UHGV virus genome: UHGV-0306824
Origin: a virus
Strand: one strand, 5' to 3'
DNA length: 10,034 bases
The notes beneath the pieces were generated by a model. The model saw nothing but the letters and a program-made list of their open reading frames with translations, was not told the DNA's origin and made no database searches. Below, piece after piece: positions 1 through 10,034 of the stretch; position 1 is the stretch's first letter; every line of letters starts with the position of its first letter. The translations under genes were made by a program, and so were the position numbers.

Positions 1-183
1 GCGCGTACAAGCCGCTATATCACTGACACGACAAAAGAGCGTTATCACCAGTGCCAGAACGTGAATTGCAGCGCCACGTTCATCACTTATGAGTCGGTAC
101 AGAGATACATCGTGAAGCCTGGAGAAGTCCACGCCGTGAGGCCGCACCCGTTGCCGTCAGGGCAGCAAATTATGTGGATGTAA
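1..183 (+). CDS. ogr: Ogr-type zinc-finger late-gene transcription activator, C-terminal 60 codons (5' end lies outside the window)
   Basis: Frame 1 reads ARTSRYITDTTKERYHQCQNVNCSATFITYESVQRYIVKPGEVHAVRPHPLPSGQQIMWM then TAA at 181-183. This matches my recollection of the C-terminal part of the 72-aa P2 Ogr, including the second Cys pair (CQNVNC). The overlapping 71-aa minus-strand ORF (87..302) has no comparable signature. Confidence 0.85.
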   Translation, partial: ARTSRYITDTTKERYHQCQNVNCSATFITYESVQRYIVKPGEVHAVRPHPLPSGQQIMWM

Positions 184-192
184 TTACAAACA

Positions 193-222
193 GGAAGCCC
201 CTCAGTCGAGGGGCTTTTTTGT
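193..222. terminator. Intrinsic terminator hairpin between convergent ogr (+) and D (-)
   Basis: AAGCCCCTC (195-203), loop AGTC, GAGGGGCTT (208-216), then a T-run 217-220. It lies 12 nt after the ogr stop and about 30 nt beyond the D stop (253-255). On the minus strand the hairpin is followed by the weaker tract CCTGTTTGT. Confidence 0.55.
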
Positions 223-252
223 CTTATAAAACAAACAGATAAAATAAAAACA

Positions 253-1416
253 TCACTCATCATCTTCTGTTTCGTACTCCACATCAGAAAGCCTGACCTC
301 AAGCTCTAAGGACGTCGTGAAGCCGCTATTATTCAGAAAATGTGTCACCTTAGTGATTGTCCAGTCCTGCTCGTCTATGACGCGCTTAAAGCCTGACACT
401 CTGACCGGTGTTTCCGTGTAAATATCAGCACGACCAGTGGCAAGGCTGATGGAGAACTCCGCAACGCCCCGTTGCAGTTTATCCCACTTCGCCTGAGCGG
501 CGCGCATGGCCTGCGCTTTCGTGGCATATACCGTGGTCAGGGCAAAAACGTTGTCAGCTTCACCGGCCATGTATTCACCTTCGCGCGCTTCCGGTACTTT
601 TGGCGCTTTCTTCTGCGTGACTGGTTTCGCTTTCGGGTGCTCCAGTGCGCGCAGGTGTTTCTCTTTCTTTTTGCGTTTCAGTTTTACCTTCTGCTTTTGC
701 GGCTTCGGGTCTTTGGTGTGTAACCACTTTGCCGTTACGCCGGTATAGGCTCCACGGTCAGCAATCGCAAAATGATGGCGGTCGCCGTCGCTGCGGGTTA
801 TGGTGACCTGCGGGATTTTTTTACCGCTGGCCGTCACCCCCTGCCCCGCTTTGAGAAACAACAGTTTTCCCATTTTTACCGACACCTCACCGCCGTTGCG
901 TTCTGCAAGACGGGTCAGGAATTTCGCATCAGACTCCTGCGACTGGTCGATGTGCGGGATTTTAATTCCGGCCAGTGACGGAGCGACACTGGCTTCCAGC
1001 CTGTTACGGGAGGCTATCGCCTCAACAATCGCACCGAGCGTGGTGTCATGCCAGGAGCCTTCACGGCGGGAATTGAGCGTCCCGCGGAAATCTGCACTCC
1101 GGGCGCGGATGGTGACCACATCCGGCGCGCCCCGGTGTTCAACCTCATCAACGGTGAATTTCCCTTTGCATACCAGGGCAAAACCTTTCCAGCCGATATA
1201 CACCGTCAGGACAGCGCCACGAACCGGCAACCCGACCTGCCCGTCGGCATCGTTCAGTTCAATATCAAGCTGGTCAGCCTCAAAGCCCCGGTTATCCGTC
1301 AGGGTCATGCTCATCAGACGGTCGCTGATATTGCCGGTAATATCCCTGCTGTCGAGCATCAGCATGTAATCCGGCGTCAGCGTACTACCTGCATCAAATG
1401 TCAGCGCGTCCAGCAT
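253..1416 (-). CDS. D: P2 gpD-family tail protein (late control gene D)
   Basis: 387-aa ORF, last gene of the FI-FII-E-T-U-D block and the same length I recall for P2 gpD. Its ATG (1414-1416) overlaps the U stop by one nucleotide (TAATG), indicating translational coupling. It contains a Lys-rich linker at about aa 235-275. Confidence 0.88.
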   Translation of the reverse strand: MLDALTFDAGSTLTPDYMLMLDSRDITGNISDRLMSMTLTDNRGFEADQLDIELNDADGQVGLPVRGAVLTVYIGWKGFALVCKGKFTVDEVEHRGAPDVVTIRARSADFRGTLNSRREGSWHDTTLGAIVEAIASRNRLEASVAPSLAGIKIPHIDQSQESDAKFLTRLAERNGGEVSVKMGKLLFLKAGQGVTASGKKIPQVTITRSDGDRHHFAIADRGAYTGVTAKWLHTKDPKPQKQKVKLKRKKKEKHLRALEHPKAKPVTQKKAPKVPEAREGEYMAGEADNVFALTTVYATKAQAMRAAQAKWDKLQRGVAEFSISLATGRADIYTETPVRVSGFKRVIDEQDWTITKVTHFLNNSGFTTSLELEVRLSDVEYETEDDE

Positions 1417-1895
1417 TATCCCGCCCCCGTCATACCCGTGAATCTGGTCGCCATACTGCCAGCCTTACCGATGAGCGATTCCGCCTGTTTACCGATATCG
1501 CCATAAAGCGCGGCCAGTGATTCATCCACGCGGGTGAGCGACAACGTAAAATCAATTTTCCGGGGTGTGCCGTCTGCAAAGAAAATACTCCCTGTTTCAC
1601 TCACCCTGCTGATGACATACATGCCGTAAATCATGCCGGTGCCATCCAGCAACGGCCACGCCCGGCCTTCCTCTGCCATCAGCCTGAGCGTGGTCATCGT
1701 CAGCTTCCCGCCGGTCAGTTCGGGATAAAGCACGCCGGCAAGCGTCATGTTTTCCTCACCCACACCGAGAAACTGAAAGGCATCCCGTTTACCGATACGG
1801 GGATTTGACGGCCAGCGATAATCTGATTCGCGCTGCATGGTCTGGTGTGGCAGCGTCTGGCGCATAAAAACAAACATACCTAACGCGAGCATCAT
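1416..1895 (-). CDS. U: P2 gpU-family tail protein
   Basis: 159-aa ORF between T and D in the canonical P2 order; the length matches gpU as I recall it. Its stop overlaps the D start. Confidence 0.88.
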   Translation of the reverse strand: MMLALGMFVFMRQTLPHQTMQRESDYRWPSNPRIGKRDAFQFLGVGEENMTLAGVLYPELTGGKLTMTTLRLMAEEGRAWPLLDGTGMIYGMYVISRVSETGSIFFADGTPRKIDFTLSLTRVDESLAALYGDIGKQAESLIGKAGSMATRFTGMTGAG

Positions 1896-1909
1896 TTTTC
1901 GTCACCTCC

Positions 1910-4357
1910 TTAACCGTCATGCATCATGCTGGCACGGGCGCGCGCACGTTTATCCCGCTCGTATTTTTCGAGCGCATCCTGTAACTGGCGGTCGAGCTGT
2001 GTCCCCGGCGCAGTACCACCCGTCAGGCTGATGTGATATTCGTTTTTACTCTGGTCTACATAAGAGCGGCCAGCCGGTGCCGTGACCGGCTGATAAGCCT
2101 GATAACCTGCATAAGAGCTGGTCGCCGGAATATAACCACCGGTGCCATACGTGGCGGCATGAGTCCTTGCGGCGGTCTGGTCAAGTGTGTCTGACTCTTT
2201 GTTGATAACACCGAGTTTTTCCAGTACCCAGTCAATACCGCTGCGCAGTTTGTTGAACGCATTAAGCGGCAGCCTCAGCGCGTCAGCCAGTGCCTGCCCG
2301 AACATGACCCCCGTGTCACGGCAACTGTTCAGGGTGTCCTGAGTGGCTTTGACCGGGACAATCAGGTTTTTAAACCACTGCCACGCGGCCTGTAACTTTT
2401 CACCCAGCCAGTCAAACACCGGTTTCAGTGGCGTGAACAGCTCCCCCACCGGCGCAAATGCCGCTTTCAGCCCTTCAACCACACCGCCAAAGAATGCGCT
2501 GACAGGCTCCCAGTATTTACGGATAAGCAACGCCCCGGCGACAATGGCGGCCACCACAGCCACAACCGGCCAGCTAATCGCCCCGATGGCCGTCATAACG
2601 GCACTACCAACCGTCGTGAAGATTGCCCCCATTGCGCCTGCTGCCGCGATGATGGCATTGATGCCAGTGATAACCGGCCAGGCTACAAGACCAATTGCAC
2701 CGATGATGCCAATAAGCGCCAGCGCGCCACCGGCAATGATGCCAATGGTTGACGCCAGTGATTTGTTTTTCTGGATCCAGCCGTCGAGTTTTAACACATA
2801 CTTTGTGGCCGTCTGTGTGAGCTTACGCAGTGCGCCTTCCTGCTGGTCAAACAGGTCTGTCCCCACCGCCTCATAAGCGGACTGAAACTCCTTAAAGTCA
2901 CCGCCGAGGTTGTCCTGCATGATATTTACCAGCTCGGCGGTCTTCCCGTCTGAGGCTTTAAACTCAGCGGTCAGTTTGTCCAGCTTTCCGGTTGAGGCGG
3001 CAGTCATCAGCACGGCGGCGGCTGAGCTGGCCTCCTCCCCGAAAATGGTTTTCATGTATTCAGCCTGCTGGGCAGTACCGAGCCGGTTTTTCTCAAAACT
3101 GGCCTGCATTTCTTTCAGAATGGTAAATACTGGTCGGGTATTCCCCTTACTGTCTGAGGTTTTCACGCCAAGCTCTTTGAGTGCATCCCATGCTTTTCCC
3201 GTCGGTGCCTGCAGGCGACTTAACACGGCACGGCTTCCCGTCCCCGCCATTGAGCCTGTGATTTTTGCATCATGCAGCGCCCCGACCATTGCGGCGGTTT
3301 CTTCAATGCTGACACCGGCATTTTTTGCCACTGGTGCGGCATAGGTCAGCGCATCGCTCATGCCGTCAAAATCAGCGGCGGTTTTGTTCATCGTCATGGA
3401 GAGAACATCCCCGATATGAGCGACCTTATCGTTTGAAAGCTGAAAGGCGGATTTCATCCCCATCAGCAGGGCGGCGTTTTCTTCCATCGTGCGGCGGTTC
3501 GCCAGTGCCATATTCAGCGTGACCGGCGTTGCCGCCTGAATGGCATCAACATCCCCACCGGCTTTCGCAATGATAATCTGTGCACCGGCTGCATCATCTG
3601 CCGAGGCGGCGGTGTTGTCGCCGAGCTGGCGCGCCTGCTTGCGGAGCGCGGTCATTTCGGCGGAGTCTTTTGCCACTCCGAGCACGGCCTGCAATTCTGA
3701 GTTTTTCTGCGCAAACTCATAACCGGGCATCAGCAACTTAACTCCGGCCATCGTTCCCGCCGCCGCAATCCCCACACCGGCAGCGCCCACTGAGGCCATA
3801 TTTCCGGCCAGTTCCTTGCCTGCCTGATAACGCTGTTTTACTGCGTTAAGTTTTGCCTGTTGCGCACTGACACGAGCCAGCGCGTCACGCTGACGGTTAA
3901 GCTGTGCGGTGGTTTCACTGATACGGTTTTTCAGTCCCTGCTCATCATGTGCAAGATTGCGGGTATTAATTCCCACAGCGGCCAGTTCCCGCTGCTGGCG
4001 TTTAATGGAATCTGTCAGGCGGTTATATTTCGCCTGTAAGTCCTCCGCCGCACGCTTTGCGGATTCCAGCACTTTCGCCTGAGCACGGGTCGGACGTTCG
4101 GTATTTTTAAACTGTGTGGCAAGGGCTTCGGCCTCCTGCCGTGCCTTTTCAAGTGCATGACCAGTCACGGCGAGCTGTGCACTGGTCTTGCGGAATCCCT
4201 CAATACGGGATGCGTGACCGTTCAGCTCGCGCAGTGATTTTTGTGTTTCCCGGATATCCCCCGACAGCGACCTGCTCGCTGTACGGATGGATTTAAACGG
4301 GCGGGATGCCTGGTCAACAGCCCTGAGCAATACCTGTAATTTTACATTGTTACTCAT
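1910..4357 (-). CDS. T: Tail tape measure protein (P2 gpT-like)
   Basis: 815-aa ORF. The N-terminal half is coiled-coil-like and rich in A/Q/R/K/E; a long Gly/Ala/Ile-rich hydrophobic segment sits mid-protein (IGIIAGGALALIGIIGAIGLVAWPVITG...), as is typical of tape measure proteins. It lies directly downstream of E/E', and its ATG (4355-4357) overlaps the E' stop. Confidence 0.9.
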   Translation of the reverse strand: MSNNVKLQVLLRAVDQASRPFKSIRTASRSLSGDIRETQKSLRELNGHASRIEGFRKTSAQLAVTGHALEKARQEAEALATQFKNTERPTRAQAKVLESAKRAAEDLQAKYNRLTDSIKRQQRELAAVGINTRNLAHDEQGLKNRISETTAQLNRQRDALARVSAQQAKLNAVKQRYQAGKELAGNMASVGAAGVGIAAAGTMAGVKLLMPGYEFAQKNSELQAVLGVAKDSAEMTALRKQARQLGDNTAASADDAAGAQIIIAKAGGDVDAIQAATPVTLNMALANRRTMEENAALLMGMKSAFQLSNDKVAHIGDVLSMTMNKTAADFDGMSDALTYAAPVAKNAGVSIEETAAMVGALHDAKITGSMAGTGSRAVLSRLQAPTGKAWDALKELGVKTSDSKGNTRPVFTILKEMQASFEKNRLGTAQQAEYMKTIFGEEASSAAAVLMTAASTGKLDKLTAEFKASDGKTAELVNIMQDNLGGDFKEFQSAYEAVGTDLFDQQEGALRKLTQTATKYVLKLDGWIQKNKSLASTIGIIAGGALALIGIIGAIGLVAWPVITGINAIIAAAGAMGAIFTTVGSAVMTAIGAISWPVVAVVAAIVAGALLIRKYWEPVSAFFGGVVEGLKAAFAPVGELFTPLKPVFDWLGEKLQAAWQWFKNLIVPVKATQDTLNSCRDTGVMFGQALADALRLPLNAFNKLRSGIDWVLEKLGVINKESDTLDQTAARTHAATYGTGGYIPATSSYAGYQAYQPVTAPAGRSYVDQSKNEYHISLTGGTAPGTQLDRQLQDALEKYERDKRARARASMMHDG

Positions 4358-4777
4358 TCGTGTTTCCGCTTCGCCGGAGTGCCTTTTCGCGCCATGTGAT
4401 GAGTTCGGTCAGGCTCATGGGATACAGTTCTGATGGCGGCCAGTGAAATATCACTGCCACATCCGCCATCAGGTCATCGACCGAGAGATTTTTCGGAAAC
4501 GTTACTGCACCGAGTTCGGCGACAAAAAACCGACCACCTTACCGGCCAGCGCCACAAGGTCAGGCAGTTCCAGCGCGGCGACCTCCTGCTCGGTCAGCAT
4601 CGGTGCCGTCATGCGCGGCAGTACCTTAATCAGTGCATCGACTTCGGAGTTTGCAACCGCAGCCAGACTGACACCGCGCAGCGTCCCCGCACTGGGTTTC
4701 ATCAGCGTGACCTGTTCGATAACCTGCTCACCACGCTTGACCGGATTGTCCAGGGTAATCACATTTTCTTTGTTCAT
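4350..4777 (-). CDS. Tail assembly chaperone E+E' made by -1 programmed ribosomal frameshift (predicted 142 aa)
   Basis: After the minus-strand heptamer T TTT TTG, the -1 frame stays open for 57 codons (VAELGAVTFPKNLSVDDLMADVAVIFHWPPSELYPMSLTELITWREKALRRSGNTNE) and ends at TAA 4350-4352, which overlaps the T start codon. The arrangement parallels lambda G/GT and P2 E/E+E'. Confidence 0.7.
4502..4777 (-). CDS. E: Tail assembly chaperone E (P2 gpE-like), zero-frame product
   Basis: 91-aa ORF between FII and T, ending ...KVVGFLSPNSVQ*. It contains the slippery heptamer seven codons before its stop. Confidence 0.85.
   Translation of the reverse strand: MNKENVITLDNPVKRGEQVIEQVTLMKPSAGTLRGVSLAAVANSEVDALIKVLPRMTAPMLTEQEVAALELPDLVALAGKVVGFLSPNSVQ
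4523..4529 (-). other. -1 frameshift slippery heptamer T TTT TTG (plus strand reads caaaaaa)
   Basis: Read directly: the zero-frame codons are GGT TTT TTG (G-F-L of ...VVGFL). This is a classical X XXY YYZ site, placed where tail-chaperone frameshifts occur. Confidence 0.7.
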
Positions 4778-4805
4778 GGTTTTCTCACTTCTGAATCAGG
4801 GTTAA

Positions 4806-4826
4806 CCGGTCAGCCAGGCTGACCGG
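4806..4826 (-). other. Intercistronic stem-loop between FII stop and E start
   Basis: Perfect 10-bp inverted repeat CCGGTCAGCC a GGCTGACCGG, 8 nt past the FII stop (4834-4836) and about 50 nt before the E ATG. No U-tract follows on the minus strand, so it is not a canonical intrinsic terminator. Confidence 0.4.
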
Positions 4827-4833
4827 ATGAAAA

Positions 4834-5352
4834 TTACAGGCCGATATTTCGGCGGTGTTGCTCCAGCCGGTCGACGCCGTTCACCTTCTCAATCATGTTG
4901 ATGGTGTCGATTTCGACCAGCTCCTTACCGTCCATCGTCAGCCGGAAATAGGTGCAGACCACGGAGATTTTCGACTCGGTGTCTTCTCCCTGTTTACCCT
5001 CGCCGGTGTCGATTTCTTTCTGACGTCCACGCATGACCACTTCGACGGCCACCGTTTCGCCGGTATCGTCGCGCTGGTAAGAGCCTGCAAAACGAATCGG
5101 CACGGCATCCACACCGGTTGAGGCGTAAAGCTCCCAGATAACCGAATCCGGGAAGCCCCCGAGCGACCACTCCATTGACAGCGCATCGTCATCAAGGCCG
5201 AGGTCTACCGGTGCGCTGCCGTTCATCCCCGCACCGCGATAGTTTTCGAGCTTACGGGTCAGTTTTGGCAGCGTGACGGACTTTGCAACGCCCTGATAGC
5301 TGTAGCCGTTCAGAAAGACGTTCATTAACTTGAGTTTGCGCGGCATTGCCAT
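4834..5352 (-). CDS. FII: Major tail tube protein (P2 gpFII-like)
   Basis: 172-aa ORF immediately downstream of the sheath gene; the 12-nt spacer contains GGAG. Length matches P2 FII as I recall it. Confidence 0.9.
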   Translation of the reverse strand: MAMPRKLKLMNVFLNGYSYQGVAKSVTLPKLTRKLENYRGAGMNGSAPVDLGLDDDALSMEWSLGGFPDSVIWELYASTGVDAVPIRFAGSYQRDDTGETVAVEVVMRGRQKEIDTGEGKQGEDTESKISVVCTYFRLTMDGKELVEIDTINMIEKVNGVDRLEQHRRNIGL

Positions 5353-5364
5353 CGGTCAGGCTCC

Positions 5365-6555
5365 TTAATTGCTGTTAACCGAGGTGACCAGATTTGCCAG
5401 GTATTTATCGGTAATACGCTGGCGCAGGGTCAGGTTTTCGAGAGGAGGCACCGGGGTATAGTCGTAGTCGATATACAGTTTTCCGGCCTTGAGGGTTTCC
5501 GCATCGTTGGATTCTTCGCTGAACCAGCAGGTCGCATCCACGATATAGCCGTTTGTTTTCAGCTCACGGAATTTGGCATTGATGCCGTCAACGATGTCGC
5601 GAATCAGCGTTGCGGTGATGGGCTTGTCCACCGCCCACATGTGCGCCTCAGCCATCGTGTCGGCCAGCACCTGCGCGGTGCGGGTGTAGTTTTCAAAGAG
5701 GAACAGCGGGTCATCAGAGCAGGTACGGTTACCCCAGAAGCGGAAACCGTCGCGGCGAATCAGCGTAGTGACGCCTGACTCATTAAGCAGGTCAGCATCG
5801 GTGCCGGACTCCTGCAAATCCCAGAATACAGAGGCGCTGATGCCGGTAACACCGTTCACCCCGACATTGGACAGCGTTTTATGCCAGCCCTGCTCCTGGT
5901 CGATTTTGGCACGCAGCCCCAGTGCACGGGCGGTGGCATACGCGGTGGCGGTGGTACTGGTGACCGTATCCCATGCGAGGAAATCCGGCCAGATGACCAT
6001 CAGCTCACGCTGGCTGAAATTCTGGCGGTAAGCTTTCACCTCGGAAATGGTTTTACAGCCCCATGCGCTGATATACCCGAAAGCGCGCAGCTTCTGACAG
6101 ACTGATGCCAGTGCAACAGCCACCTCTTTGGTGTCCAGTCCCGGCACGCCGAGAATACGCGGTTTAACACCGGTTACCGACTCCGCCGCCAGCAGGGCTT
6201 TCAGTCCGGTGTACTGACCGTTTTCGTCGGTGGTGCCGATGATATTGGAAACGGTCTGCGCGAGTTTCGTTTCTTCGTCGTCGCCGGTGCCGTCTTCCAC
6301 GCGCACAACAACGGTGACCGGTTTTGACTGGTCAGCGATGGCCTGTAACGACGCCGCCAGCGTGCCTTTTTTACCGGCCTTTGCAATTGCGCTCTGCACA
6401 TTAGTAATCAGCACAGGTTTATTGAGGGGGAAGGTTTCCGCATCCGCATCGCTGGCCGTGCAGACCATGCCGACAATGGCAGTGGATACGGTGGAAATGA
6501 CGCGGGTGCCGTCGTTAATCTCCAGCACCTGCACGCCGTGATGATAGTCACTCAT
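5365..6555 (-). CDS. FI: Contractile tail sheath protein (P2 gpFI-like)
   Basis: 396-aa ORF, first gene of the block, with GGAG about 8 nt upstream of its ATG. Length matches P2 FI as I recall it. Confidence 0.9.
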   Translation of the reverse strand: MSDYHHGVQVLEINDGTRVISTVSTAIVGMVCTASDADAETFPLNKPVLITNVQSAIAKAGKKGTLAASLQAIADQSKPVTVVVRVEDGTGDDEETKLAQTVSNIIGTTDENGQYTGLKALLAAESVTGVKPRILGVPGLDTKEVAVALASVCQKLRAFGYISAWGCKTISEVKAYRQNFSQRELMVIWPDFLAWDTVTSTTATAYATARALGLRAKIDQEQGWHKTLSNVGVNGVTGISASVFWDLQESGTDADLLNESGVTTLIRRDGFRFWGNRTCSDDPLFLFENYTRTAQVLADTMAEAHMWAVDKPITATLIRDIVDGINAKFRELKTNGYIVDATCWFSEESNDAETLKAGKLYIDYDYTPVPPLENLTLRQRITDKYLANLVTSVNSN

Positions 6556-6663
6556 CCGTTTAACTCCGTGGTTAATGGGTGAGTGGTATTTTCAGTTGTG
6601 CCGGAGATGTCAGGCTATTTGTCCCGGTTGGCTAATCGACAGCACAACCACCGGTAAAGAAAA
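6556..6663 (-). promoter_or_regulatory. Putative late promoter and RBS region for the FI operon (expected to be Ogr-dependent)
   Basis: Only the position is supported: about 100 nt between the upstream terminator hairpin and the FI start. I searched for a perfect TGT-N12-ACA activator-site dyad and found none. Confidence 0.3.
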
Positions 6664-6682
6664 GGCGGGCAATTTGCCCGCC
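6650..6682 (-). terminator. Intrinsic terminator (minus-strand orientation) upstream of the FI promoter region
   Basis: GGCGGGCAA t TTGCCCGCC palindrome at 6664-6682. On the minus strand it is followed by TTTTCTTTA (reverse complement of 6650-6663). On the + strand there is no good T-tract. Confidence 0.5.
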
Positions 6683-6881
6683 TGTCCTGATTTGTACTCA
6701 CTCATTTTCCGACTGACAATTTACATAGCCCAAACGCTATCAAATCTGACAGTCTGCTTTGGGTAAACTGATAATGGGCAGAGCTTTGTATGGCTAACTT
6801 CAGCATGATACCTTACAGTCAAGCTGACAAAAGGCGGAATGATTATTCGTTGATACACATCCTCCTGTAAGGAAACAAAGC

Positions 6882-7652
6882 ATGTATAAAGAACTTATAG
6901 AACAGAGACTGAATGAGGCAAAAGCCGCCAGAGCTGCGCTGAGCAAGATTAATGGTGTAATTGTCGAAAAAACACACAACCCTGACCGCGGACTGTATCT
7001 CGTTAATTATGCCAATTTACTTATGAACAGGCAGATAGACATCTTCGATGATGCGCTTCTCCTCCTCGAAAACGAACGATACCAAAGCGCTTGTATTGTT
7101 AGCCGAGGAATGATTGAAACTCATGCCTTCTCACGACTCTTAAACAAGAAAGTAGAGAAAATTTTGACTACCCAAAATGGACACGCAAGTGTAGATAACG
7201 CTATCGAAGTTATATTGAACTTTACGAATAGTTCTCGATTTAAAAAGTCAGAGCAAGAAAAGATTCAGAAAGAAGTATTTGACCCGAACGACTACATGTT
7301 TACTGAGGAGGCTAAATATCGTTTTGAAAACCTACTTGCTGTCAGTATGCATGTGATGACTGCTTTACGCGAACTCTATAAAGATGAGATGAAGCAGACT
7401 AATCAGATGGAAAGTGATTTTGAACTGACTTATGACATACTTAGCGAATATGTTCATCCTTCACAAACGAGCATCTACCACTACTACACACCTGAAACCC
7501 ACTTAGTTCCTACTTCGGTTGGTAATATTCATACTTATGTGCATGCTCAGCTACAATGTGTGAGAGCGCTACTTTTCATATTAGAAGCAAAGAGTCAACA
7601 TTATTGGTCTACACAGTTAGCAAATGAGATGACCAAACGAGCTAAAGAGTAA
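6882..7652 (+). CDS. Hypothetical protein, 256 aa; cargo gene at the G-FI moron position (P2 Z/fun-type site)
   Basis: Uninterrupted ORF with AAGGA 8 nt before its ATG. It is visibly more AT-rich than the flanking tail genes, opposite in orientation to the late operon, and predicted mostly helical. No motif I can assign, apart from an R-x5-H stretch (SRGMIETH). Confidence 0.75.
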   Translation: MYKELIEQRLNEAKAARAALSKINGVIVEKTHNPDRGLYLVNYANLLMNRQIDIFDDALLLLENERYQSACIVSRGMIETHAFSRLLNKKVEKILTTQNGHASVDNAIEVILNFTNSSRFKKSEQEKIQKEVFDPNDYMFTEEAKYRFENLLAVSMHVMTALRELYKDEMKQTNQMESDFELTYDILSEYVHPSQTSIYHYYTPETHLVPTSVGNIHTYVHAQLQCVRALLFILEAKSQHYWSTQLANEMTKRAKE

Positions 7653-7767
7653 GGCCTAAGCCCTGCAATGTGTTTATTTGAAAAATATTTCAATTTTTTC
7701 TTTGTATGCTGTAAATGACCTGAGTCCCTCTGACCAGAGAGCCTTGATGTTATCAATGTCCGCTCCT

Positions 7768-7900
7768 GGCACAGAGCGGACTGTCAGATTAGGGGTTACT
7801 CTGTGTTATAGATATGTGAGCTCACACCAGAGCTTATACAGCTTATTGTGGCATTTCCGGCCATTCAGGATTTGCAGGATCCACACGACTGACCAGAACG
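7768..7900. repeat. R1 copy a: 133 bp comprising the last 19 codons of a minus-strand tfa plus 75 bp of its 3' flank
   Basis: About 92% identical by eye (roughly 10 mismatches) to 8456-8588 in the same orientation. Confidence 0.8.
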
Positions 7901-7997
7901 CTGTAGCGTTCCCATGATTCCAGTCGGCTACGCTCCTCATCTGTTGCCATGTTCAGTCTGACCGCGCGCTCCAGCGGCAAAATCACGGATTCGGCAT
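7843..7997 (-). pseudogene. Tail fibre assembly protein (P2 gpG / Tfa family), 3' remnant only
   Basis: Minus strand reads [50 protein letters not shown], a Tfa-family C-terminus. The frame runs only 57 codons back to an in-frame TGA (rc of 8017-8019) with no start. Homology to the + strand tfa copy stops abruptly at about 7997. Confidence 0.7.
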
Positions 7998-7998
7998 T

Positions 7999-8106
7999 AT
8001 TGTTCAGGATACCGGCTCAAACTCTGCCGATAGCATTGGTGGCATATATTACAGACCGGTGCAGAAATACATTAACGGGACATGGTATAACGTAGCGCAG
8101 GTATAA
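7999..8106 (+). pseudogene. Possible 3' fragment of a tail-fibre (H/Stf-like) gene, directly upstream of the + strand tfa
   Basis: Frame reads ...[36 protein letters not shown] with its stop 3 nt before the tfa ATG (TAA ttt ATG). That is the usual fibre-chaperone spacing, but the assignment rests on context only. Confidence 0.35.
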
Positions 8107-8250
8107 TTTATGCAGCATTTAAAAAATATTACGGCGGGTAATCCAAAAACGGTTGAACAATATCAATTGACAAAGAATTTTGATGTTGTCTGGTTTTTTT
8201 CAGAAGATGGTAAGAACTGGTACGAAGAACAAAAGTATTTTGCTGATGAC

Positions 8251-8367
8251 ACGATAAAAATAGCGTACGACAAAGATAATATCATCCACTATGTGGAAAA
8301 GGATGTGACAGCTATCAGACCGGATGGATTAAGTGTTGTTGAAGTGGCGGATATTACTGCTAACCGA
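8251..8367 (+). repeat. tfa-internal 117-bp direct repeat, copy 1
   Basis: 115 of 117 identical to 8586-8702; the mismatches are A/G at two positions (gacaaAgat vs gacaaGgat; catccActat vs catccGctat). Confidence 0.85.
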
Positions 8368-8455
8368 GCTGGAGCTGGTTGTGTTTAATGAAAAATTACA
8401 ATTTTAATACGTCCGCTGTACACCCTTAGCTGCCGTTAGCTTAACGTCCGCAACA
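8368..8455 (+). repeat. R2 copy 1: 88-bp element at the breakpoint inside tfa
   Basis: GCTGGAGCTGGTTGTGTTTAATGAAAAATTACAATTTTAATACGTCCGCTGTACACCCTTAGCTGCCGTTAGCTTAACGTCCGCAACA, identical to 9130-9217. Confidence 0.85.
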
Positions 8456-8588
8456 GGCACAGAGCGGACTGTCAGATTAGGCTTTACTCTGTACCATAGA
8501 TATGTAAGCTCACACCAGAGTTCATACAACTTATTGCGGCATTTCCGGCCATTCAGGATTTGCAGGATCCACACGACTGACCAGAACG
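8456..8588. repeat. R1 copy b: inverted tfa 3' end (last 18 codons, ..[18 protein letters not shown]) plus 3' flank, lying inside the + strand tfa
   Basis: About 92% identical to 7768-7900. It encodes on the minus strand exactly the C-terminal residues that the + strand tfa lacks. Confidence 0.8.
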
Positions 8589-8702
8589 ATAAAAATAGCG
8601 TACGACAAGGATAATATCATCCGCTATGTGGAAAAGGATGTGACAGCTATCAGACCGGATGGATTAAGTGTTGTTGAAGTGGCGGATATTACTGCTAACC
8701 GA
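8586..8702 (+). repeat. tfa-internal 117-bp direct repeat, copy 2
   Basis: See copy 1; it shares ACG (8586-8588) with the end of R1b. Confidence 0.85.
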
Positions 8703-9129
8703 CGGGCGGACATTTCAGGGGGCTGGATGTTTAAGGACGGAAAAGTGATTAAACGCATTTATACGGCAGAGGAATTGCAGCAGCAGGCAGAAAACCGGAA
8801 AGCCAGACTTCTTGCAGATGCTGAATCCGTGATTTTGCCGCTGGAGCGCGCGGTCAGACTGAACATGGCAACAGAGGAGGAGCGCACACGGCTGGAGGCT
8901 TGGGAACGCTACAGCGTTCTGGTCAGTCGTGTGAATTAATAGTCTTTATTAATCATAATATTTAAATAATTAGGCTGCTTTTTTAATTGAACTATAAAGA
9001 ATAAGCAACCCACTCAATAAGATACACTTTATTTATTCTGGTGCAATATTAAAAACGCATAATAAGTGTCATTTTCATTGCTCGTGAATGCCATTACTCT
9101 TAAATCGTGATCCGGTTCAAAATTTAGAG

Positions 9130-9217
9130 GCTGGAGCTGGTTGTGTTTAATGAAAAATTACAATTTTAATACGTCCGCTGTACACCCTTAGCTGCCGTTA
9201 GCTTAACGTCCGCAACA
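9130..9217 (+). repeat. R2 copy 2: 88-bp element abutting the 5' end of the DarT-like frame
   Basis: Identical to 8368-8455. Its last 11 nt supply the in-frame codons R-P-Q just before the DarT-like sequence; an in-frame TAA sits at 9204-9206. Confidence 0.85.
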
Positions 9218-9218
9218 T

Positions 9219-9545
9219 GTTTATCATTTTACATACATTGATAATCTTGAGGGAATTATAAAAAATGGATTACTTAGTACAAATTTAAAATCAAATAGAG
9301 GCATTATTCATAAAGATATAGCAAATAATGAAATACAACACCGTCGTAGTGAAATGAGGGTCACTTGTGGTCCAGGTGGAGTGGTCCATGATTATGTGCC
9401 TTTTTACTTCACTAAAAGATCTCCCATGTTACTTAATGTTATTAAGAAAAAAAACGTAGATCAAGAAGGAATTATATATCTTGCGATACCAATAGAGGCG
9501 ATAGAAGATAAATCAGTAGTTTTTTCAAATTCTTACCACATTTAA
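9219..9545 (+). pseudogene. DarT-like DNA ADP-ribosyltransferase toxin (DUF4433-like), N-terminal part; no start codon and truncated at a rearrangement junction
   Basis: Frame reads VYHFTYIDNLEGIIKNGLLSTNLKSNRGIIHKDIANNEIQHRRSEMRVTCGPGGVVHDYVPFYFTKRSPMLLNVIKKKNVDQEGIIYLAIPIEAIEDKSVVFSNS then SYHI*. The motifs YHxT..NL, GGxxHDYVPFYF and SPML match what I recall of the DarT family. There is no ATG/GTG/TTG between the upstream TAA (9204) and the conserved N-terminus; the first ATG is at 9354. Confidence 0.55.
9418..9534 (+). repeat. R3 copy a: 117-bp perfect direct repeat inside the DarT-like frame
   Basis: Identical by eye to 9685-9801 (GATCTCCCATGTTACTTAATG...TTTTTTCAAATTCTT). Confidence 0.85.
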
Positions 9546-9605
9546 ATCATGAAAGTAATGATGATCAAATGATCTAGAATCACAACGAACATCAAAATTA
9601 TTAAA

Positions 9606-9685
9606 CCCATATTTTTTCAATAGCTGTGCAACATGCGTTTTCACGCAAAGATTCCAAACAACAATAAATGAAAAATTATTGAAGG
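9606..9685. repeat. Inverted copy (reverse complement) of 9955-10034, the DarT-like 3' coding segment
   Basis: Perfect 80-bp inverted repeat; I checked 9611-9660 base by base against 9980-10029. The pairing reaches the window edge, so the repeat may extend to 9535 on this side. Confidence 0.85.
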
Positions 9686-9801
9686 ATCTCCCATGTTACT
9701 TAATGTTATTAAGAAAAAAAACGTAGATCAAGAAGGAATTATATATCTTGCGATACCAATAGAGGCGATAGAAGATAAATCAGTAGTTTTTTCAAATTCT
9801 T
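9685..9801 (+). repeat. R3 copy b
   Basis: See R3 copy a. Confidence 0.85.
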
Positions 9802-10034
9802 CTGCAAATACTTTAACGCCACCAACATTTTACTCTAATGCTGATGATTTAAATAAGCTAAATTGGGATGCAATTGACAGTAGAGTGTGGATCCCAAAGA
9901 CCGAAGGAGTAAAACAGCAAAAAATGGCAGAGTTGCTTATTCATGATGAAATTCCCTTCAATAATTTTTCATTTATTGTTGTTTGGAATCTTTGCGTGAA
10001 AACGCATGTTGCACAGCTATTGAAAAAATATGGG
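9693..10034 (+). CDS. DarT-like toxin, C-terminal portion; frame open to the window end (3' partial, lacks the N-terminal region)
   Basis: From ATG 9693: MLLNVIKKKNVDQEGIIYLAIPIEAIEDKSVVFSNSSANTLTPPTFYSNADDLNKLNWDAIDSRVWIPKTEGVKQQKMAELLIHDEIPFNNFSFIVVWNLCVKTHVAQLLKKYG, 114 codons with no stop. The ..KMAELLIHD.. helix fits the Glu-containing catalytic motif of ADP-ribosyltransferases. It is absent from the ORF track only because it runs off the edge. Confidence 0.5.
   Translation, partial: MLLNVIKKKNVDQEGIIYLAIPIEAIEDKSVVFSNSSANTLTPPTFYSNADDLNKLNWDAIDSRVWIPKTEGVKQQKMAELLIHDEIPFNNFSFIVVWNLCVKTHVAQLLKKYG
9955..10034. repeat. Right arm of the inverted repeat (coding orientation of the DarT-like gene)
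   Basis: Reverse complement of 9606-9685. Confidence 0.85.

What the first reader, a model, noticed from the sequence alone, without database searches (positions are those of the whole stretch)
9418..10034. Duplication plus fold-back inversion splits the DarT-like gene
The layout is A-B | X' | B-C-D. B (117 bp) is a perfect direct repeat at 9418-9534 and 9685-9801. The 80 bp just before the second B (9606-9685) is the exact reverse complement of the DarT 3' coding segment D (9955-10034). The pairing reaches the window edge, so 9535-9605 is probably the reverse complement of 10035-10105; read that way it stays open in the DarT frame (..FNNFDVRCDSRSFDHHYFHDLNVV). The junction at 9534/9535 turns ..VFSNS into ..SYHI*. 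Deleting 9535-9801 (267 bp) restores one continuous frame. This duplication-inversion-duplication layout is what a replication template switch leaves behind and would inactivate a lethal toxin. Because every repeat is 100% identical, a short-read misassembly is an equally live explanation.
Basis: seen in the sequence. Interest (0 to 1): 0.6.

Follow-up and report, generated by a model that had tools for sequence, protein, structure and literature searches.

The report
Chimeric zig-zag contig, not darT rearrangement
The repeat-plus-inversion that splits the DarT toxin gene is really in the sequence, but it is only the last of eight back-and-forth flips that stitch together pieces of two different P2-like prophages, so it is most likely an assembly or library artefact and not a biological event.

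Summary
There is a 117-nt perfect direct repeat and an 80-nt perfect inverted repeat. The premature stop is there, and removing 9535-9801 restores exactly the intact darT of three complete E. coli genomes.

The event is not local to darT. Against intact reference prophages the window is a strict forward/reverse zig-zag with eight fold-back junctions, at 223, 7992, 8367/8, 8586-8, 8932-3, 9217/8, 9534 and 9685. These also cut ogr, the tail-fibre genes H and G, and the darT upstream region, so the darT start codon is missing. They link two different P2-like prophages. One carries a DUF5677 cargo and the other carries darT-darG. Both cargos are rare, and no complete E. coli genome has both.

All junctions are seamless with 0-3 nt of microhomology, which is the random expectation. 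All paired breakpoints lie 270-495 nt apart, and no segment is shorter than about 150 nt. That is the geometry of paired-end reads joined without flipping the mate. It does not fit polymerase template switching. None of the eight junctions occurs in 5,426 complete E. coli genomes, and the two that were scanned for (J0 and J6) are absent from three large contig collections.

Verdict: most likely an artefact (about 0.8). A real complex rearrangement remains possible (about 0.1).

The parts
1..223 (+). seg0: 3' part of ogr plus its terminator (= L003 18836-19058). It is inverted relative to the neighbouring D gene. The window start lies 2 nt from a common draft-contig break inside ogr.
   Evidence: the same 60-aa partial OgrK occurs on 30 contigs at contig ends
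223..7992 (-). seg1: colinear P2-like prophage B'. Genes: D 253-1416, U 1416-1895, tape measure 1910-4357, E 4502-4777, tube 4834-5352, sheath 5365-6555, all on the minus strand. DUF5677 cargo gene 6882-7652 on the plus strand. 3' part of tail-fibre-assembly G 7758-7992 on the minus strand. Junction J0 at 223 and J1 at 7992.
   Evidence: Logan contig L012 matches 1831-6581 with 2 mismatches
7993..8367 (+). F1: 3' end of tail-fibre H and 5' part of G, B-type (L004 11611->11232, equivalent to L003 8424-8803). Junction J2 at 8367/8368 with 0 nt overlap.
8368..8588 (-). R1: reverse complement of L003 9016-9236 (end of G and the downstream spacer of the darT prophage A), 100% identical. Junction J3 at 8586-8588 with 3 nt overlap.
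8586..8933 (+). F2: L003 8687-9034 (internal part of G, A-type), 100% identical. Junction J4 at 8932-8933 with 2 nt overlap.
8932..9217 (-). R2: reverse complement of L003 9149-9434 (spacer upstream of darT), 100% identical. Junction J5 at 9217/9218 with 0 nt overlap. L003 9435-9514, which holds the darT Shine-Dalgarno site and ATG, is absent.
9218..9534 (+). F3: darT nt 30-346 (L003 9515-9831). It contains the first copy of block B (9418-9534). Junction J6 at 9534 with 1 nt overlap creates ..SYHI*.
   Evidence: (PF14487 DarT, E 5e-29)
9534..9685 (-). At 150-152 nt it is the shortest segment. Junction J7 at 9685 with 1 nt overlap.
9685..10034 (+). F4: darT nt 230-579 (L003 9715-10064). It contains the second copy of block B (9685-9801) and the right arm of the 80-nt inverted repeat (9955-10034). 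It runs off the window.
   Evidence: (PF14487, E 7e-20)

Best explanation
The split darT is not a rearrangement that happened in a cell. The right-hand 2 kb of the window, and its first 223 nt, form a chain of short pieces (150-380 nt) copied from intact templates and joined alternately in forward and reverse orientation. The pieces tile an ordinary P2-like prophage that carries an intact darT-darG cargo between the tail-fibre-assembly gene G and the tail-sheath gene FI. The chain hangs on both ends of a normal 7.8-kb stretch of a second P2-like prophage, which carries a DUF5677 cargo at the same hotspot.

Every join is seamless, has no more microhomology than chance, and links two points 270-495 nt apart on opposite strands. 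This is what results when the two mates of paired-end fragments (insert = 270-495 nt + read length) are joined or linked without reverse-complementing one mate, and the result is then assembled over a thinly covered region. Raw concatenated spots or mis-specified pair orientation would both do this.

Shown here: the zig-zag map, the junction properties, the two-prophage origin, and the absence of the junctions elsewhere. Inferred: the exact step that created the joins. I put about 0.55 on an informatic read-pair cause and about 0.25 on wet-lab chimeras, which gives about 0.8 for an artefact of any kind. On this reading the underlying genome has an ordinary, intact darT.
For: (1) blastn against three intact reference prophages and eight DUF5677-type prophages maps the window as F,R,F,R... 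with eight fold-back junctions. Seven of the nine segments are 100% identical to a reference across the junction-flanking stretch.
(2) Overlap at the junctions is 1,1,0,3,2,0,1,1 nt with no inserted bases. Simulated random fold-back joins in the same sequence give a mean of 0.72 nt and 17% with >=2 nt.
(3) Breakpoint separations are 310, 495, 433, 329, 400, 366, 305 and 270 nt. None is shorter. The shortest segment is 150-152 nt.
(4) The pieces tile L003 8424-10136 almost completely, with small overlaps and one 80-nt gap. Several pieces bring in sequence not present earlier in the path, so each piece was copied from an intact template.
(5) The junctions are not specific to darT. They also cut ogr, H, G and two spacers.
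(6) Two prophage types are joined. The darT cargo occurs in 3 and the DUF5677 cargo in 8 of 5,426 complete E. coli genomes, and none has both.
(7) No junction-spanning match to any of the eight 60-mers was found in 5,426 complete E. coli genomes. The J6 and J0 30-mers are absent from the GTDB representatives, the JGI metagenomes and IMG/VR. The junction ORFs are absent from a 15-billion-protein index.
(8) The window starts within 2 nt of a position where many short-read E. coli contigs break inside ogr. This fits a contig end.
Against: The source reads, the coverage and the assembler are unknown, so the artefact step is inferred and not shown. An ordinary de Bruijn contig could not pass twice through the 117-nt and 88-nt repeats unless k exceeded them or reads were threaded through the graph. 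The model therefore needs a repeat-resolving or overlap-type assembler and low coverage of the darT prophage. The two direct duplications being the same length (117 nt) is unexplained. The 150-152-nt segment sits exactly at a typical read length, which requires two reads with almost the same ends. Real prophage remnants can also be heavily rearranged, as in L001.
Confidence: 0.8

Rival explanations
1. Wet-lab chimeras. Strand-displacement amplification (phi29 MDA or similar) produced inverted, nearby template-switch products before sequencing, and an over-amplified chimeric molecule was then assembled. This is a sub-case of 'artefact', and its probability is included in the 0.8 above.
For: MDA chimeras are 85% inverted joins of nearby sequence, formed within one branched molecule (PMC1855051). 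That matches the strict inversion and the proximity seen here. Every piece is an exact copy of an intact template.
Against: In MDA, 93.5% of proximal inverted junctions show >=2 bp of complementarity (PMC1855051). Here only 2 of 8 do, which is the random expectation; the binomial probability is about 2e-6. From that paper's counts (495 chimeras in 108,944 reads), assuming roughly 100-nt 454 reads, I estimate about one chimera per 20 kb, against seven in 2 kb here. Chimera numbers fall off with distance in MDA, whereas no jump here is shorter than 270 nt.
Confidence: 0.22
2. A real in-vivo complex rearrangement. Serial replication template switching (of the FoSTeS/MMBIR or tandem-inversion-duplication kind) occurred in a strain carrying both prophages. 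It left a decayed, scrambled prophage region in which darT is destroyed.
For: Each unit has the DUP-INV-DUP layout that template switching leaves. All copies are exact, so the event would be recent. Decayed P2 remnants that keep darTG do exist (L001). darT is also found inactivated by a frameshift in two other genomes, so loss of this toxin does occur.
Against: Eight junctions with chance-level microhomology and no insertions. The junctions lie in genes unrelated to the toxin. The model requires two rare prophages in one cell, and 0 of 5,426 complete genomes have both. It also requires a switch between them. No junction was found in any other genome or contig collection. Breakage-fusion-bridge-type cycles are excluded, because later pieces contain sequence absent from the earlier path. 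All jumps are 270-495 nt, with none shorter, and replication-based switching does not predict that.
Confidence: 0.1
3. One reading: a single duplication-inversion-duplication event selected because it inactivates the lethal DarT toxin.
For: The junction at 9534/9535 does introduce a stop codon, and removing 267 nt restores the gene.
Against: The darT start codon and ribosome-binding site are separately missing. An identical 117-nt-duplication unit sits in the tail-fibre-assembly gene. Six further junctions lie outside darT. The antitoxin gene darG lies beyond the window, so nothing here shows that the toxin was ever unopposed.
Confidence: 0.03

Closest known systems
DarT-DarG (DarTG) toxin-antitoxin / anti-phage system carried as cargo in the P2-like prophage hotspot between tail-fibre-assembly G and tail-sheath FI
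   Same: The fragments at 9218-9534 and 9685-10034 match Pfam DarT PF14487 (E 5e-29 and 7e-20). They are 100% identical to the 444-aa DarT of NZ_CP138423 and NZ_AP027512. In those genomes darT is followed by a macro-domain DarG (PADLOC DarT 8e-53, DarG 6e-58).
   Different: In the window the gene lacks its start, is interrupted by an inverted copy of its own downstream segment, and carries a 117-nt duplication. darG is outside the window. The reference DarT carries an extra C-terminal HD domain.
Mis-oriented paired-end joins (mates concatenated or linked without reverse-complementing)
   Same: Strict alternation of strand. Breakpoint pairs are one insert-size-minus-read-length apart (270-495 nt). 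The joins are seamless with chance-level microhomology. No segment is shorter than about 150 nt. The pieces tile an intact reference.
   Different: No reads are available to confirm it. This resemblance rests on geometry and on my own knowledge of how such files behave. It has not been shown on the source data.
Multiple-displacement-amplification chimeras (Lasken & Stockwell 2007, PMC1855051)
   Same: Inverted joins between nearby sequences, with each arm an exact copy.
   Different: The junction complementarity typical of MDA is missing. Junction density is far higher than reported for MDA. No short-range jumps occur.
DUP-TRP/INV-DUP and bacterial tandem inversion duplications formed by replication template switching
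   Same: The layout is a direct duplication flanking an inverted segment.
   Different: Those events are single, with microhomology or short inverted repeats at the joins, and usually with kilobase-scale arms. Here there are eight chained joins with 0-3 nt of overlap and 150-380-nt pieces. This comparison rests on general knowledge of those mechanisms.

Membership tests
DarT (ssDNA thymidine ADP-ribosyltransferase toxin) | Sequence match to the DarT domain | tested here: met
   PF14487 E 5.4e-29 (9219-9545) and 7.2e-20 (9684-10034). The intact reference scores 5.8e-47, and PADLOC DarT 7.8e-53.
DarT (ssDNA thymidine ADP-ribosyltransferase toxin) | Complete open reading frame with a start codon | tested here: not met
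   The start codon and Shine-Dalgarno region (L003 9435-9514) are absent. There is a stop at 9543-9545 after junction J6.
DarT (ssDNA thymidine ADP-ribosyltransferase toxin) | Adjacent macro-domain antitoxin DarG | not testable with these tools
   darG lies beyond the window end. It is present directly downstream in L001-L003 and in L015, L016, L019 and L021.
Replication template-switch rearrangement (FoSTeS/MMBIR, DUP-INV-DUP) | Inverted segment flanked by a direct duplication | tested here: met
   B (117 nt) x2 with X' (152 nt) in between. A second unit lies at 8251-8702.
Replication template-switch rearrangement (FoSTeS/MMBIR, DUP-INV-DUP) | Microhomology at the joins above chance | tested here: not met
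   Observed 1,1,0,3,2,0,1,1 nt. The random expectation is a mean of 0.72 nt, with 17% at >=2 nt.
MDA (phi29) chimera | >=2 bp complementarity at proximal inverted junctions (93.5% of cases) | tested here: not met
   2 of 8 junctions.
Paired-end mis-orientation artefact | Every join inverted, seamless, and with breakpoints an insert-scale distance apart | tested here: met
   8 of 8 joins are inverted, with 0 inserted bases and separations of 270-495 nt.
Paired-end mis-orientation artefact | Junctions coincide with mate boundaries in the raw reads | not testable with these tools
   The source sample was not found in any searchable collection.
Repeat-collapse short-read misassembly | k-mer-length identical sequence shared by the two sides of each false join | tested here: not met
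   The sides share only 0-3 nt.
Invertible tail-fibre segment (Gin/Cin/Min-type) or shufflon | Serine invertase gene and conserved crossover sites; inversion without duplication | tested here: not met
   No ORF corresponding to the resolvase gene that relatives L014, L017, L018 and L022 carry at this hotspot. The segments are duplicated, and the junctions share no motif.

The most novel reading that the evidence does not exclude
The zig-zag is a real DNA molecule: a burst of serial strand-switching events, like chromoanasynthesis, in an E. coli lysogen carrying two P2-like prophages. It scrambled about 2 kb around the defence-cargo hotspot and destroyed a DarT toxin gene, using an end-joining-like mechanism that needs no microhomology.
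Probability: 0.08. Interest if true: 0.6.

Novelty: not a real feature. Interest (0 to 1): 0.1.

Why it matters
If the structure were real, it would be a rare bacterial example of clustered, homology-independent fold-back rearrangement at a prophage defence hotspot, and a new route to toxin loss. As an artefact, its value is practical. It shows a recognisable signature: strict strand alternation, insert-scale jumps, seamless joins, and tiling of an intact reference. This signature can be used to flag chimeric contig ends before 'disrupted toxin' or 'pseudogene' calls are made from them. The underlying biology, a DarT-HD/DarG cargo in the P2 G-FI hotspot, is already represented by intact copies in public genomes.

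Tried and rejected
1. Repeat-collapse de Bruijn misassembly. Rejected, because the joins share only 0-3 nt.
2. Breakage-fusion-bridge or hairpin-capping cycles. Rejected, because R1 and R2 contain reference sequence that is absent from the preceding path, and the sequence after each join is not the complement of the sequence just before it.
3. Invertase or shufflon switching of tail-fibre genes. Rejected, because there is no invertase, the segments are duplicated and not merely flipped, and the junctions share no motif.
4. Diversity-generating retroelement. The two A/G differences in the 117-nt repeat at 8251/8586 prompted this idea. Rejected, because both sites are simply allelic differences between the two prophage types.
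5. Proximity ligation or restriction-site joins. Only J7 lies next to a GATC, and 8 of 8 inverted joins is not expected from random ligation.
6. Collapsed consensus of two prophages as the source of the A/B mosaic in 223-6761. Rejected, because an independent Logan contig (SRR11412778_9616) has the same mosaic with 2 differences.
7. Finding the source contig. Exact junction 30-mers in GTDB genomes, JGI metagenomes and IMG/VR gave nothing. The junction ORFs and alternative starts are not in the protein index. The plasmid and phage collections hold only normal relatives.
8. My first reading as 'no genome has the junctions' was invalid, because that tool never joins opposite-strand pieces into one place. 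I replaced it with the 60-mer junction query.

Full report
**1. Checking the observation**

The repeat finder reports a direct repeat 9415-9534 / 9682-9801 and an inverted repeat 9606-9685 / 9955-10034 (80 nt, 100% complementary). Exact-match extension places the perfect part of the direct repeat at 9418-9534 = 9685-9801, which is 117 nt. Translation gives ..VFSNSYHI* across 9534/9535 and ..VFSNSSANTL.. in the second copy. Both fragments are DarT (PF14487, E 5e-29 and 7e-20).

Three complete E. coli genomes carry the intact locus: NZ_AP027512, NZ_CP138423 and NZ_CP145618 (loci L001-L003). It lies in a P2-like prophage in the order tail fibre H, tail-fibre assembly G, darT (444 aa, DarT + HD), a macro-domain darG, then tail sheath FI.

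Window 9218-9534 + 9802-10034 equals L003 9515-10064 exactly. X' is a 152-nt inverted copy of darT nt 500-651.

**2. What surrounds it**

I aligned the whole window to these references and to eight prophages of a second type, which I found through the 256-aa ORF at 6882-7652. The duplication-inversion-duplication turns out to be the last unit of a chain. In reference coordinates (L003 unless stated) the window reads as follows.

| Window | Reference | Direction | Content |
|---|---|---|---|
| 1-223 | 18836→19058 | forward | ogr 3' part and terminator |
| 223-7992 | 18748→8919 equivalent | reverse | D, U, T, E, FII, FI, a DUF5677 cargo gene and the 3' part of G; colinear with the second prophage type (L004 3343-11111) |
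| 7993-8367 | 8424→8803 | forward | B-type H/G |
| 8368-8588 | 9236→9016 | reverse | |
| 8586-8933 | 8687→9034 | forward | |
| 8932-9217 | 9434→9149 | reverse | |
| 9218-9534 | 9515→9831 | forward | |
| 9534-9685 | 10136→9985 | reverse | |
| 9685-10034 | 9715→10064 | forward | |

That makes eight fold-back junctions (J0-J7) in strict forward/reverse alternation.

Two more repeat families are by-products of the same chain. They are 117 nt at 8251-8367/8586-8702 and 88 nt at 8368-8455/9130-9217.

The 80 nt that hold the darT ribosome-binding site and ATG (L003 9435-9514) are absent from the window. Deleting 267 nt would therefore not give a functional gene.

**3. Two prophages are joined**

Window 223-8367 belongs to a P2-like prophage with a DUF5677 cargo in the G-FI hotspot. 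Window 8368-10034 is 100% identical to the darT-darG prophage. Both a B-type and an A-type copy of the G 3' region are present, so two prophage genomes contributed.

The cargos are rare. Among 5,426 complete E. coli genomes, 3 have the darT cargo, 8 have the DUF5677 cargo, and none has both.

The last B-specific base is at 8288, which is 79 nt before J2, and the next 79 nt are identical in both types. A graph path could therefore pass from one prophage to the other at that point.

The coarse A/B mosaic of 223-6761 is natural. An independent Logan contig (SRR11412778_9616) shares it with two differences.

**4. Properties of the joins**

- **Seamless.** The exact-match runs of neighbouring segments abut or overlap by 1,1,0,3,2,0,1,1 nt. 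There are no inserted bases.
- **Chance-level overlap.** Simulating 200,000 random fold-back joins in the same reference stretch gives a mean overlap of 0.72 nt, with 17% at >=2 nt. The observed values are at chance level.
- **Narrow range of jumps.** The two breakpoints of each join lie 310, 495, 433, 329, 400, 366, 305 and 270 nt apart. None is closer.
- **Segment lengths.** Segments between joins are 150-152, 218-221, 284-286, 316-317, 343-348 and 375-376 nt, plus the 7.8-kb stretch.
- **Tiling.** Together the pieces cover L003 8424-10136 almost completely, with small overlaps.
- **No motif.** No sequence motif is shared by the junctions.

**5. Mechanism**

Template switching by a polymerase, whether in the cell or in a phi29 amplification, normally lands on a few complementary bases. 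In MDA, 93.5% of proximal inverted chimeras show >=2 bp, and their number falls with distance (PMC1855051). Here only 2 of 8 do, and there are no short jumps.

Breakage-fusion-bridge or hairpin cycles cannot explain the structure, because later pieces bring in reference sequence that the earlier path lacks.

A repeat-collapse misassembly needs k-mer-length identity at the joins, and that is absent.

One model does fit every feature: paired-end geometry. A forward read and its raw, unflipped mate, placed end to end, give an inverted, seamless join. Its breakpoints are insert length minus read length apart. With 150-nt reads, the eight joins would correspond to inserts of about 420-645 nt. No segment between joins can then be shorter than one read, and the shortest here is 150-152 nt. 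Chains of such pairs over a thinly covered locus would tile the true sequence in alternating orientation.

The window also starts within 2 nt of a position where many short-read E. coli contigs end inside ogr. This fits the zig-zags hanging on the two ends of a normally assembled 7.8-kb contig core.

The exact pipeline step is inferred. It could be concatenated spots or a wrong pair-orientation setting. I could not recover the source reads.

**6. Searches for the junctions elsewhere**

- A query of eight junction-spanning 60-mers found only half-matches in 5,426 complete E. coli genomes.
- Exact 30-mers for J6 and J0 are absent from the GTDB representative genomes, the JGI metagenome contigs and IMG/VR.
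- ORFs that cross the junctions are not in the 15-billion-protein index.
- All relatives retrieved show the normal D-ogr order and a colinear G-cargo-FI region.

**7. Comparison with known systems**

The gene is an ordinary member of the DarT family, in the known P2 cargo position, with DarG next to it in intact copies. DarTG is an established toxin-antitoxin and anti-phage system (for example PMC11825919, listed, and my own knowledge).

The rearrangement has the form of a DUP-INV-DUP event. It fails the microhomology test and the single-event expectation. It resembles MDA chimeras in orientation and proximity, but not in junction complementarity or density.

**8. Verdict**

The interpretation as a toxin-inactivating template switch is not supported. 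The structure is most likely not a real feature of any genome: about 0.8 for an artefact of some kind, with read-pair mis-joining favoured. A real, recent complex rearrangement cannot be excluded without the reads (about 0.1). Interest is low unless read-level data show that the joins are real.

Noticed in passing
window 6882-7652 (+): A 256-aa DUF5677 protein (PF18928, E 1.3e-10) is the only cargo in the G-FI hotspot of the second P2-like prophage. It has no PADLOC match. It occurs in 8 of 5,426 complete E. coli genomes and in 212 index blocks. It is a candidate uncharacterised prophage-hotspot (possibly defence) gene.
   Followed up: partly
L002 9486-10819 and L013 1931-3264 (darT nt 252-259); same run at window 9449-9456 and 9716-9723: Two otherwise identical darT copies (NZ_CP145618 and CP181796) have A7 instead of A8, which frameshifts the toxin into two ORFs. 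This is either natural homopolymer inactivation of the toxin or a long-read homopolymer error.
   Followed up: partly
L003 9486-10820 (beyond the window end): This DarT is 444 aa: a DarT domain plus a C-terminal HD-domain match (PF01966, E 1.6e-6). The partner is a 371-aa macro-domain protein. As far as I know, an HD fusion is not part of the textbook DarT.
   Followed up: no
L001 (NZ_AP027512 1800554-1819617): Strain LR-28 carries a heavily deleted P2 remnant with partial portal, replication and tail genes. It still keeps intact G, darT and darG. This suggests the cargo is retained while the phage decays.
   Followed up: no
window 223-6761: The tail-gene block is a coarse mosaic of tracts matching the darT-type prophage (245-1230, 1994-3926) and the DUF5677-type prophage (1527-1830, 3934-5121, 6031-6737). 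The only other contig with the identical tape-measure protein is Logan SRR11412778_9616, which breaks at 1831 and 6581.
   Followed up: yes
window 1-183: The window begins 2 nt inside a position where at least 30 public E. coli draft contigs end, each with the same 60-aa partial OgrK. The window start is therefore probably a contig end at a repeat shared by several P2-like prophages.
   Followed up: partly
NZ_CP124697.1 2440-2989 (Klebsiella pneumoniae plasmid, 62 kb): A mobilizable Klebsiella plasmid carries a darT 96.7% identical to this prophage cargo gene. The same toxin gene therefore moves between prophage and plasmid contexts.
   Followed up: no
L014, L017, L018, L022 (about 2850-4800 in each locus): Other P2-like prophages with the identical D protein have an invertible tail-fibre cassette in the same hotspot: opposed Caudo_TAP genes plus a resolvase-type invertase. 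This is a real inversion system at the place where the window shows artefactual flips.
   Followed up: no
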